DNA from: Escherichia coli
GTDB taxonomy: Bacteria; Pseudomonadota; Gammaproteobacteria; Enterobacterales; Enterobacteriaceae
Strand: one strand, 5' to 3'
Length of the DNA stretch: 64,000 bases
NCBI RefSeq assembly: GCF_009931435.1
Contig: NZ_CP043414.1
Shown: positions 8,342-8,373 of the stretch, piece by piece
Layout of the letters: every line of letters begins with the position of its first letter
Position numbering within the stretch: the stretch's first letter is position 1
Notes under the pieces: model-generated
Databases searched by the model: none
What the model was told of the DNA's origin: nothing
The model's input: the letters and a program-made list of their open reading frames with translations, nothing else
Made by a program: the position numbers and the translations under genes

Positions 8342-8373
8342 CTTTGTACAATTTTAGCGTATATTGTACAAAG
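8342..8373. promoter_or_regulatory. Perfect 10-bp inverted repeat in the bluR promoter (candidate MerR-type operator)
   Basis: CTTTGTACAA-N12-TTGTACAAAG, 53-84 bp upstream of the bluR start; a related TGTACG-N7-TGTACA motif lies at 6753-6771 upstream of ycgZ. Confidence 0.45.

What the first reader, a model, noticed from the sequence alone, without database searches (positions are those of the whole stretch)
8342..8373. Perfect palindrome CTTTGTACAA-N12-TTGTACAAAG upstream of bluR
A 10-bp perfect inverted repeat lies 53-84 bp upstream of the MerR-family repressor gene bluR, and a related TGTAC-containing dyad sits in the divergent bluF/ycgZ intergenic region (6753-6771). This suggests autoregulation of bluR through the same operator type that BluR uses at the ycgZ promoter.
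Basis: partly seen in the sequence, partly recalled or inferred. Interest (0 to 1): 0.35.

Follow-up and report, generated by a model that had tools for sequence, protein, structure and literature searches.

The report
Predicted self-repression site at bluR promoter
The palindrome is real, sits on the mapped start of the E. coli bluR gene, and has stayed with this regulator gene in over 70 related species, so it is most likely where the BluR repressor shuts off its own gene; nobody has tested this directly.

Summary
The perfect inverted repeat has 14-nt arms (8339-8352 / 8363-8376) around a 10-nt centre. It holds two TTGTACAA octamers 20 bp apart.

The published primer-extension start of bluR (54 nt upstream of the start codon, so about 8372) puts the dyad at -33 to +5, over the -10 hexamer TATATT and +1.

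The 58-bp core is identical in 4556 of 4970 E. coli records. A TGTACA-N11-14-TGTACA pair (mostly N13) lies about -80/-61 from the start codon in 74 of 81 BluR-like genes. This includes all 41 Erwiniaceae genes at the mlrA position, which have no bluF or ycgZ nearby. True Enterobacteriaceae mlrA genes lack it.

So the site follows the BluR-type DNA-binding domain. That supports autoregulation, most likely negative in E. coli.

It is not the ycgZ operator type. That operator is TGTACA-N7-TGTACA in all 36 orthologous loci, whereas this site is N14, closer to the MlrA box at csgD (N12).

BluR models as a CarH-like protein, and TGTACA fits the CarH TnnACA element, which could explain the flexible spacing.

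I found no binding or expression data for this site. I rate it a new member of a known kind, of moderate interest.

The parts
8339..8352 (.). Left arm of the perfect 14-nt inverted repeat (ATACTTTGTACAAT). It contains hexamer 1, TGTACA, at 8345-8350, which is -27 to -22 from the mapped TSS.
   Evidence: position relative to the TSS from PMC3509220
8353..8362 (.). Asymmetric 10-nt centre (TTTAGCGTAT). It carries the start of the -10 hexamer. The two variant E. coli alleles I sampled have their change within the dyad here (8355 T>C, 8359 G>A).
8363..8376 (.). Right arm (ATTGTACAAAGTAT). It contains hexamer 2, TGTACA, at 8365-8370 (-7 to -2), and the mapped transcription start at about 8372.
8336..8341 (+). 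Candidate -35 hexamer TTTATA, with an 18-bp spacer to TATATT. It abuts and overlaps the left arm.
   Evidence: consensus scan and PWM scan; consistent with the mapped TSS; inferred, not shown
8360..8365 (+). Candidate -10 hexamer TATATT. It ends 6 nt before the mapped TSS, and its last T is the first T of hexamer 2.
   Evidence: TSS from PMC3509220
8372..8372 (+). bluR transcription start, plus or minus 1-2 nt. It is transferred from K-12, whose sequence is identical to the window over 8315-8406.
   Evidence: PMC3509220: 5' end 54 nt upstream of the start codon; K-12 alignment
8426..9157 (+). bluR coding sequence (243 aa, GTG start): MerR_1 HTH, MlrA_helical and MlrA_C domains, with a CarH-like predicted fold.
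6753..6771 (-). Known BluR operator in the ycgZ promoter (on the minus strand: TGTACA-N7-CGTACA), overlapping -35 and the spacer. Included as the comparison site with the other geometry.
8387..8392 (.). Third TGTACA, 22 bp after hexamer 2 (+16 to +21). It is polymorphic within E. coli (TGTAGA in two strains) and has no conserved counterpart in other genera (a few have a TGTACA at a different offset). It is probably not part of the conserved element.

Best explanation
The 38-bp palindrome is an operator for the BluR-type regulator at its own sigma-70 promoter. Two TGTACA hexamers, about two helical turns apart, are each bound by one DNA-binding domain of a BluR oligomer. In E. coli the bound protein covers the upstream spacer, the -10 hexamer and +1, so RNA polymerase is excluded and bluR represses itself. 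BluF releases BluR from DNA in blue light and cold, so the same signal that derepresses ycgZ-ymgABC would also raise bluR transcription. That would be a negative feedback that limits and resets the response. What is shown here or in the literature: the sequence, its overlap with the mapped promoter, its conservation and its link to the BluR-type DNA-binding domain. What is inferred: that BluR binds it, that the effect is negative, and that BluF relieves it.
For: (1) The dyad spans -33 to +5 of the bluR promoter. The primer-extension TSS lies 54 nt upstream of the start codon (PMC3509220). The K-12 sequence is identical over 8315-8406. The best sigma-70 match is TTTATA-18-TATATT.

(2) BluR recognises TGTAC/GTACA half-sites at ycgZ, shown by footprint, EMSA and operator mutations. 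It also binds the wide-spaced MlrA box at csgD in EMSA (PMC3509220).

(3) Within E. coli, the 58-bp core is 100% identical in 4556 of 4970 records. By contrast only 23 of 4977 records are at least 99% identical over the 351-bp surrounding region. In the two variant alleles I sampled, the change within the dyad falls in the asymmetric centre.

(4) Across species, 74 of 81 BluR-like genes have TGTACA-N11-14-TGTACA with at most 1 mismatch at about -80/-61. Flanking positions carry about 0-0.3 bit of information. The chance expectation is about 2e-4 per locus for the commonest (N13) spacing, and under 1e-3 with four spacings allowed.

(5) The dyad is present in all 41 Erwiniaceae genes at the mlrA position (yohO and yehW downstream, no bluF or ycgZ), where the upstream gene is divergent. 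It is absent from 9 of 9 true Enterobacteriaceae mlrA promoters. The DNA-binding domains of dyad-bearing genes are 88-95% identical to one another but only 71-73% identical to MlrA. The site therefore tracks the DNA-binding domain type, not the neighbourhood.

(6) Three species with almost no bluF-bluR spacer (L020, L025, L035) have lost the dyad, as expected for an element tied to a promoter.

(7) BluR's HTH is closest in the PDB to CarH, LitR and CarA. Its model matches full-length CarH. CarH domains read TnnACA (PMC9304148), and TGTACA fits that on both strands.
Against: I found no EMSA, footprint, ChIP or SELEX data for BluR at this site. PMC3509220 shows the bluR promoter sequence but does not mention a palindrome there or autoregulation (0 hits for 'autoregul').

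The spacing differs from the validated ycgZ operator (N14 against N7), and E. coli is 1 bp longer than the family norm of N13. Binding of one protein to both geometries is therefore assumed, not shown.

In most other species the best predicted promoter uses hexamer 2 as its -35 element. The sign of regulation could differ outside E. coli.

An RNA polymerase holoenzyme SELEX study lists this spacer as a 'constitutive' promoter (PMC3946193).
Confidence: 0.65

Rival explanations
1. The dyad is bound mainly by the paralogue MlrA, or by both paralogues. bluR would then be cross-regulated by the c-di-GMP/PdeR/DgcM-controlled curli activator rather than, or in addition to, being autoregulated.
For: The geometry (N14) is closer to the MlrA box at csgD (TGTGCA-N12-TGTACA; PMC3509220) than to the ycgZ operator. 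The HTH motifs of MlrA and BluR differ at only four residues.
Against: The dyad occurs in Erwiniaceae, where the gene it precedes is the one at the mlrA position and has a BluR-type DNA-binding domain. True MlrA genes lack it at their own promoters. The spacing is 2 bp longer than in the only validated MlrA box. A site over -10/+1 does not suit an activator.
Confidence: 0.12
2. The site mediates positive or architectural autoregulation: the regulator recruits RNA polymerase or remodels the promoter, as classical MerR proteins do, rather than occluding it.
For: In 34 loci the best predicted promoter is TTGTAC (hexamer 2 as -35), a 17-bp spacer and a TAAGGT-like -10. That places hexamer 1 near -57, a typical activator position. 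MlrA is an activator.
Against: In E. coli the mapped TSS puts the right arm on -10/+1. The dyad centre lies 7 bp downstream of the centre of an 18-bp spacer, which is not the MerR geometry. BluR is described as a repressor only, even at csgD.
Confidence: 0.08
3. No dedicated regulator binds. The hexamers are conserved only as core promoter elements, or as AT-rich DNA bound by H-NS.
For: TACAAT (in hexamer 1) and TTGTAC (hexamer 2) resemble -10 and -35 hexamers and score as such. The spacer is flagged as a holoenzyme-binding and H-NS region (PMC3946193).
Against: All six bases of two non-consensus hexamers are near-invariant at a fixed spacing in 70+ species, in palindromic arrangement. The same hexamer is a proven BluR/MlrA recognition element. 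Promoter hexamers normally drift.
Confidence: 0.06
4. The palindrome acts as an RNA hairpin that terminates or attenuates read-through from bluF.
For: The RNA folds into a 14-bp hairpin at -17.9 kcal/mol, z = -3.4 against shuffles. It lies 118 nt after the bluF stop codon.
Against: The stem is AT-rich, the loop is 10 nt, there is no U tract, and the terminator scan did not call it. The bluR mRNA starts inside the right arm, so it cannot form the hairpin. The hexamer sequence is invariant rather than covarying. In Erwiniaceae the upstream gene is divergent, so there is nothing to terminate.
Confidence: 0.03
5. The site is bound by RcdA (YbjK), the TetR-type regulator whose box TTGTnnACA is found in the ycgF-ycgZ and csgD spacers.
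For: RcdA binds the neighbouring ycgF-ycgZ spacer and csgD. Its best site is the palindrome TTGTGTACAttTGTACACAA (PMC3535384).
Against: There is no exact TTGTnnACA in 8300-8420: TTGTACAA lacks the two-base gap. The RcdA SELEX lists name the ycgF-ycgZ spacer but not the bluF-bluR spacer.
Confidence: 0.03

Closest known systems
BluR operator in the ycgZ promoter (Tschowri et al. 2012, PMC3509220)
   Same: It has the same TGTACA/GTACA recognition element, lies in the same locus and overlaps core promoter elements. BluR is the expected binding protein.
   Different: The hexamers are 13 bp apart centre to centre (N7, occasionally N8) at ycgZ in all 36 orthologous loci, against 20 bp here (19 bp in most relatives). 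The ycgZ site covers -35 and the spacer of a sigma-S promoter. This site covers the spacer, -10 and +1 of a sigma-70 promoter. The ycgZ site is validated experimentally; this one is not.
MlrA box upstream of csgD (Ogasawara et al. 2010, as cited in PMC3509220 and PMC9662190)
   Same: It is a wide-spaced palindrome of TGTACA-type hexamers with partly similar flanks (AAAGTTGTACA against ACTTTGTACA). BluR binds it weakly in vitro.
   Different: The spacer is N12 against N14. One csgD hexamer is degenerate (TGTGCA/TGCACA). The csgD site lies well upstream of the promoter (about 280 bp before the csgD start codon in K-12) and activates. This site overlaps -10/+1.
CarH/CarA operators of B12-type MerR photoregulators (Thermus, Bacillus, Myxococcus; PMC9304148)
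   Same: BluR has the same three-domain architecture by prediction and the closest DNA-binding domain in the PDB. TGTACA satisfies the CarH element TnnACA. Both kinds of operator overlap -35 or -10. Both repressors are released by a light-dependent event. CarA is released by an anti-repressor (CarS), as BluR is by BluF (noted in PMC3509220).
   Different: CarH sites are three to five tandem 11-bp direct repeats. Here there are two self-complementary hexamers 19-20 bp apart with no clear middle repeat. BluR does not bind B12 (my statement from general knowledge, not tested here).
Classical MerR-type operators (MerR, CueR, SoxR, ZntR)
   Same: The N-terminal HTH family is the same, and the dyad lies within a promoter.
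   Different: Classical sites are roughly 18-22-bp dyads centred in a 19-20-bp -35/-10 spacer (spacer length from PMC3509220; site size from my own knowledge), and they activate by distorting DNA. Here the spacer is 18 bp, the dyad is 38 bp long, and its centre is shifted 7 bp downstream onto -10/+1.

Membership tests
BluR operator of the ycgZ type | TGTAC/GTACA half-sites | tested here: met
   Two perfect TGTACA hexamers at 8345-8350 and 8365-8370. The motif definition comes from PMC3509220.
BluR operator of the ycgZ type | Hexamer spacing N7 (13 bp centre to centre), as footprinted in E. coli and conserved in orthologues | tested here: not met
   The spacing here is N14. ycgZ promoters have N7 or N8 in 36 of 36 loci. 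An embedded TGTACA-N7-CGTATA (8345-8363) exists in E. coli but is not conserved in relatives.
BluR operator of the ycgZ type | BluR binding in vitro and BluR-dependent repression in vivo | not testable with these tools
   This needs EMSA or footprinting and promoter fusions. No such data were found.
MlrA box (csgD type) | Palindrome of TGTACA-type hexamers separated by 12 nt | tested here: not met
   csgD in K-12 has TGTGCA-N12-TGTACA. This site has N14, and the family norm at own promoters is N13.
MlrA box (csgD type) | Position far upstream of the core promoter, with an activating role | tested here: not met
   The dyad spans -33 to +5 of the bluR promoter.
Negative autoregulatory operator | Lies at the regulator's own promoter and overlaps -35, -10 or +1 | tested here: met
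   The TSS is about 8372 (PMC3509220). The right arm covers -10/+1 and the left arm covers the spacer and the edge of -35.
Negative autoregulatory operator | Matches the regulator's known recognition motif | tested here: met
   It carries the same hexamer as the footprinted ycgZ operator.
Negative autoregulatory operator | Co-inherited with the regulator gene across species, independent of neighbouring genes | tested here: met
   74 of 81 loci carry it, in both the bluF-linked and the mlrA-position contexts. It is absent from promoters of the divergent MlrA clade.
Negative autoregulatory operator | Regulator-dependent repression of its own promoter | not testable with these tools
   No expression data for bluR in a bluR mutant were accessible. 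The 2009 paper is not held.
Classical MerR operator | Dyad centred within a 19-20-bp -35/-10 spacer | tested here: not met
   The spacer is 18 bp (8342-8359, centre 8350.5). The dyad centre is at 8357.5.
CarH/CarA-type operator | Recognition element TnnACA | tested here: met
   TGTACA equals TnnACA on both strands. The element definition comes from PMC9304148.
CarH/CarA-type operator | Three or more tandem 11-bp direct repeats | tested here: not met
   Only two hexamers are present, 20 bp apart. There is no TnnACA at +10 or +11 from hexamer 1 (reading).
Intrinsic terminator | GC-rich stem, short loop and a following U tract | tested here: not met
   The terminator scan did not call it. The hairpin is AT-rich with a 10-nt loop and is followed by UAUUAUUGGG.

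The most novel reading that the evidence does not exclude
The dyad is the E. coli copy of an ancestral self-regulation module of CarH-like MerR regulators in Enterobacterales. Self-complementary TGTACA (TnnACA) hexamers are read by loosely tethered DNA-binding domains, so one protein can use two conserved geometries: N7 at the target operon ycgZ and N13-14 at its own promoter. On this reading BluR is the conservative copy in both sequence and promoter. Enterobacteriaceae MlrA is the derived copy, which lost self-control when it became a sigma-S and c-di-GMP-dependent curli activator. That reverses the usual description of BluR as the diverged duplicate of MlrA.
Probability: 0.35. Interest if true: 0.5.

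Novelty: new member of a known kind. Interest (0 to 1): 0.4.

Why it matters
BluR is the output switch of the only known blue-light pathway of E. coli, and it feeds into Rcs signalling, curli and biofilm control. If BluR represses its own promoter, the pathway contains a negative feedback loop that has not been described. Light or cold would raise BluR synthesis while BluF inactivates it, which would sharpen and then reset the response. That matters for modelling the pathway and for optogenetic uses of BluF/BluR.

The comparative result also gives testable material on two wider questions. One is how a CarH-like MerR protein reads two different half-site spacings. The other is which paralogue, BluR or MlrA, kept the ancestral properties.

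Autoregulation of a repressor is very common, so the finding is useful rather than surprising.

Tried and rejected
- **Direct evidence in the literature.** I searched for BluR, YcgE and MlrA together with operator, autoregulation, SELEX, ChIP-seq, ChIP-exo and iModulon. Nothing addresses this site. The search 'blur' + 'ChIP-exo' returned only unrelated papers, because 'blur' is an ordinary word.
- **Papers not held.** The 2009 Genes Dev paper, the dRNA-seq TSS paper and the CarH structure paper could not be read. I therefore could not check the TSS against genome-wide data.
- **TF titration library.** The supplements of PMC9189660 list BluR only for growth and copy number, not for autoregulation.
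- **Terminator reading.** Rejected.
- **RcdA box.** Rejected, as there is no match.
- **Third TGTACA at 8387-8392.** I considered it part of the operator but dropped it. It is polymorphic in E. coli and has no conserved counterpart elsewhere.
- **Embedded ycgZ-like site.** TGTACA-N7-CGTATA (8345-8363) could be the real operator, but it is not conserved in relatives.
- **Self-control of E. coli mlrA.** I looked for the same dyad upstream of E. coli mlrA. It is absent, and only a single TGCACA plus an A-tract remains.
- **Technical notes.** My first bluF query was translated in the wrong frame; I repeated it correctly. The search for related loci did not list E. coli itself among its best 80 loci, and I do not know why.

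Full report
**1. Where we are**

The window is the E. coli ycgZ-ymgA-ariR-ymgC / bluF / bluR region.
- The ORFs at 6460-6696 (minus strand), 7010-8221 (plus) and 8426-9157 (plus) are ycgZ, bluF and bluR.
- The segment 8150-8500 is 100% identical to E. coli 2013C-4282 and 95-99% identical to 4897 of the 4977 E. coli records that match.
- It aligns to K-12 with no difference between 8315 and 8406.

**2. The observation**

The reported 10-N12-10 palindrome is at 8342-8373.
- The perfect inverted repeat is in fact 14 nt per arm: ATACTTTGTACAAT at 8339-8352 and ATTGTACAAAGTAT at 8363-8376, with 10 nt between.
- Each arm contains the self-complementary octamer TTGTACAA, so the element is also a direct repeat with 20-bp spacing.
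- None of 100 shuffles gave even a 3-mismatch match.
- TGTACA itself is not enriched in the window (15 found, 12.7 expected).
- A scan for pairs of hexamers 11-22 bp apart with at most one mismatch gave five hits. These were the known ycgZ operator, this site twice (hexamers 1+2 and 2+3), and two one-mismatch pairs elsewhere. Shuffles gave a mean of 1.2 and a maximum of 7.

**3. Position relative to the promoter**

Tschowri, Lindenberg and Hengge (2012, PMC3509220) mapped the 5' ends of bluR, bluF and ycgZ by primer extension. They lie 54, 30 and 36 nt upstream of the respective start codons. The paper states that bluR is transcribed on its own by sigma-70 RNA polymerase.
- With the GTG start at 8426, the bluR start is at about 8372, inside the right arm.
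- The best sigma-70 match is TTTATA (8336-8341), an 18-bp spacer, then TATATT (8360-8365). This fits the mapped start.
- The dyad therefore spans -33 to +5. Hexamer 1 is at -27 to -22 and hexamer 2 at -7 to -2.
- A protein bound here would compete with RNA polymerase.

**4. What recognises TGTACA**

The same paper footprinted BluR on the ycgZ promoter.
- The protected site has a GTACA...GTACA repeat overlapping a TGTAC...GTACA palindrome, covering -35 and the spacer.
- Point mutations in it abolish binding and derepress ycgZ::lacZ.
- In the window this is TGTACA-N7-CGTACA, read on the minus strand of 6771-6753.
- BluR also shifts the csgD promoter, which holds the MlrA box AAAGTTGTACA-N12-TGCACAATTTT, with lower affinity. 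I confirmed the N12 spacing in K-12.
- So BluR binds TGTACA-type hexamers at both short and wide spacing in vitro.
- The paper contains no mention of autoregulation and no comment on a palindrome at bluR.

**5. Conservation within E. coli**

- The 58 bp around the dyad (8329-8386) are 100% identical in 4556 of 4970 matching records.
- By contrast only 23 of 4977 records are at least 99% identical over the 351-bp region.
- Both variant alleles I fetched carry their substitution within the dyad in the asymmetric centre (8355 T>C; 8359 G>A). Both also change the third, downstream TGTACA to TGTAGA.
- One strain has an IS1 element in place of the left arm.

**6. Conservation across species**

A scan of one genome per species with a BluR alignment returned 80 loci, 62-83% identical to BluR.
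- 74 of 81 loci (window included) have two TGTACA hexamers with at most one mismatch in total, 17-20 bp apart, at about -80/-61 from the start codon.
- Start-to-start spacing is 19 bp (N13) in 64 loci, 18 bp (N12) in 7, 17 bp (N11) in 1, and 20 bp (N14) only in E. coli and one Erwinia.
- After removing near-duplicates (38 sequences), the hexamer positions are near-invariant, while the flanks carry 0.0-0.3 bit. The consensus is tcaagtTGTACAataaAAAAa.a.TTGTACAa.
- The alignment was anchored on the hexamers, so their information content is partly by construction.
- The frequency of such pairs is not by construction. Chance would give about 2e-4 per locus for the N13 spacing, and under 1e-3 with four spacings allowed.

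**7. The dyad follows the protein, not the neighbourhood**

- 39 of the 80 fetched loci (40 counting the window) have bluF directly upstream; 36 of them also show ycgZ divergent from it, and the other 3 contigs end before that point. These are true bluR orthologues.
- The other 41 (Pantoea, Erwinia, Mixta, Izhakiella) have no bluF or ycgZ. Thirty-nine of them have yohO and/or yehW immediately downstream, as E. coli mlrA does. Their upstream gene is divergent: an Xre-type HTH gene followed by a GNAT gene.
- All 41 carry the dyad.
- E. coli mlrA and eight true MlrA orthologues in the same yohO-yehW context have no dyad. The eight are from Salmonella, Enterobacter, Kosakonia, Franconibacter, Buttiauxella, Raoultella, Atlantibacter and Dryocola. 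At most a single TGCACA or TGTACA followed by an A-tract remains, next to a conserved CTACAGTTA motif.
- bluR-type and Erwiniaceae mlrA-position proteins are 70% identical to each other (88% in the DNA-binding domain). Both are only 49-52% identical to Enterobacteriaceae MlrA (71-73% in the DNA-binding domain).
- The presence of the dyad therefore tracks the BluR-type DNA-binding domain.
- Three bluR loci with almost no bluF-bluR spacer lack the dyad (L020, L025, L035).
- Four loci (Lelliottia and Huaxiibacter group) have TATACA-N7-TGTACA instead.

This pattern is what one expects of an operator used by the product of the gene it precedes.

**8. It is not the ycgZ operator type**

- In all 36 bluR-type loci the ycgZ promoter has TGTACA-N7 (sometimes N8)-TGTACA.
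- There are therefore two separately conserved geometries in the same genomes: 13 bp centre to centre at the target operon, and 19-20 bp at the regulator's own promoter.
- A rigid dimer cannot place its two reading heads equivalently on both.

**9. A possible reason for the two geometries**

- BluR has MerR_1, MlrA_helical and MlrA_C domains.
- Its HTH is closest in the PDB to CarH, LitR and CarA (E about 1e-14) rather than to MerR, CueR or SoxR.
- An AlphaFold model (mean pLDDT 82, from a 15-sequence alignment) has a winged HTH, a helical bundle and a Rossmann-like domain. It matches full-length CarH best (E about 1e-9; TM only about 0.4 because domain orientations differ).
- CarH and CarA oligomers bind through loosely tethered domains that each read TnnACA in 11-bp repeats overlapping -35 or -10. 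One CarH dimer contacts two non-adjacent repeats (PMC9304148).
- TGTACA is TnnACA on both strands.
- My inference, which is not shown: each hexamer takes one BluR DNA-binding domain in either orientation. This would allow variable spacing, with the 19-20-bp sites placing both domains on roughly the same face of the helix.

**10. Mechanism proposed**

BluR binds the dyad and occludes -10/+1 of its own promoter, giving negative autoregulation. BluF, which strips BluR from DNA in blue light and cold, would relieve this.

The authors had to shift cells to 16 °C to map the bluR and bluF starts. That fits this model but has other explanations.

Outside E. coli, the best predicted promoter in 34 loci uses hexamer 2 (TTGTAC) as the -35 element, with a conserved TAnnnT 17 bp downstream. 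The overlap with the core promoter is general, but the exact architecture and possibly the sign of regulation may differ.

**11. Rivals**

- MlrA binding is possible and not exclusive. It is less likely to be the main story (section 7).
- Positive control is unlikely in E. coli, given the overlap with -10/+1 and BluR's repressor-only behaviour.
- A pure promoter-element or H-NS explanation does not account for two invariant non-consensus hexamers in palindromic arrangement.
- The RNA hairpin (-17.9 kcal/mol, z = -3.4) has no U tract and was not called as a terminator. It cannot form in bluR mRNA and would have nothing to terminate in Erwiniaceae.
- The RcdA box TTGTnnACA has no match here.

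**12. Novelty and verdict**

BluR, its ycgZ operator, the MlrA box and the bluR TSS are all known. A BluR site at the bluR promoter, its family-wide conservation and its loss at Enterobacteriaceae mlrA are not described in anything I could reach.

This is a new predicted site for a known repressor, with an evolutionary twist. It is not a new kind of system. Confidence in the autoregulatory-operator reading is about 0.65, and interest is about 0.4.

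Noticed in passing
window 9279-9288: A third exact copy of the 10-mer ACTTTGTACA (the inner part of both arms) lies in the bluR-ycgX spacer, about 95 nt upstream of the ycgX start codon. None of 100 shuffles gave three copies. I saw no partner hexamer at 13 or 19-20 bp. It may be an orphan half-site or a weak BluR site for ycgX.
   Followed up: partly
window 8387-8392: A third TGTACA lies 22 bp after hexamer 2, at +16 to +21 of the bluR transcript. It is TGTAGA in two other E. coli strains and has no conserved counterpart in other genera.
   Followed up: yes
window 7929-7945 (inside bluF): TTGGCACAGGTTTTGCT is one mismatch from the intragenic sigma-54 binding site IS13 reported upstream of bluR in K-12 (PMC4591121). 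It contains the SrsR (YgfI) box gCAGgTTTTGC, which is reported to activate bluR (PMC9181523). It could be a second, upstream input to bluR expression.
   Followed up: partly
window 6753-6771 and loci L002-L078 (ycgZ promoters): The published BluR operator at ycgZ is conserved as TGTACA-N7(8)-TGTACA in all 36 bluF-linked loci examined. The E. coli copy has one degenerate hexamer (CGTACA).
   Followed up: yes
L082 7700-7866; L087-L094 1340-1500: True mlrA promoters of Enterobacteriaceae share a conserved GTCTACAGTTA (a sigma-S-like -10) and, about 87 nt upstream of the start codon, a single TGCACA or TGTACA followed by AAAAA. This looks like a relic of the left half of the dyad.
   Followed up: partly
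L019, L021, L028 and other Erwiniaceae loci, about 30 bp upstream of the dyad (around 3875-3895): A second conserved palindrome, ATCTCATATATGAGAT, lies next to a divergent Xre-type HTH gene followed by a GNAT acetyltransferase gene. It is probably that regulator's own operator.
   Followed up: partly
L086 (E. coli 2022CK-00450), equivalent to window about 8290-8358: An IS1A element ends inside the dyad and replaces the left arm and the -35 region. It is a natural disruption of the bluR promoter and operator.
   Followed up: no
L050, L053, L059, L070 (Lelliottia, Huaxiibacter and relatives), about -78 to -59 from the bluR start: These bluR promoters carry TATACA-N7-TGTACA, the short ycgZ-type spacing, instead of the N13 dyad.
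   Followed up: no
L014: A contig labelled Chryseobacterium sp. 18061 carries a complete enterobacterial ycgZ-bluF-bluR locus (69% BluR, 66% BluF). This is most likely contamination or mislabelling of the assembly.
   Followed up: no
window 9634-9657 (inside ycgX) and 61617-61644: Two further hexamer pairs with one mismatch each (spacing 18 and 22 bp). One is inside a coding region. Given the shuffle counts, both are probably chance.
   Followed up: no
window 8242-8259: A small perfect hairpin, ATGATTTC-tg-GAAATCAT, lies 21 nt after the bluF stop codon. It has no T-run and its role is unknown.
   Followed up: no
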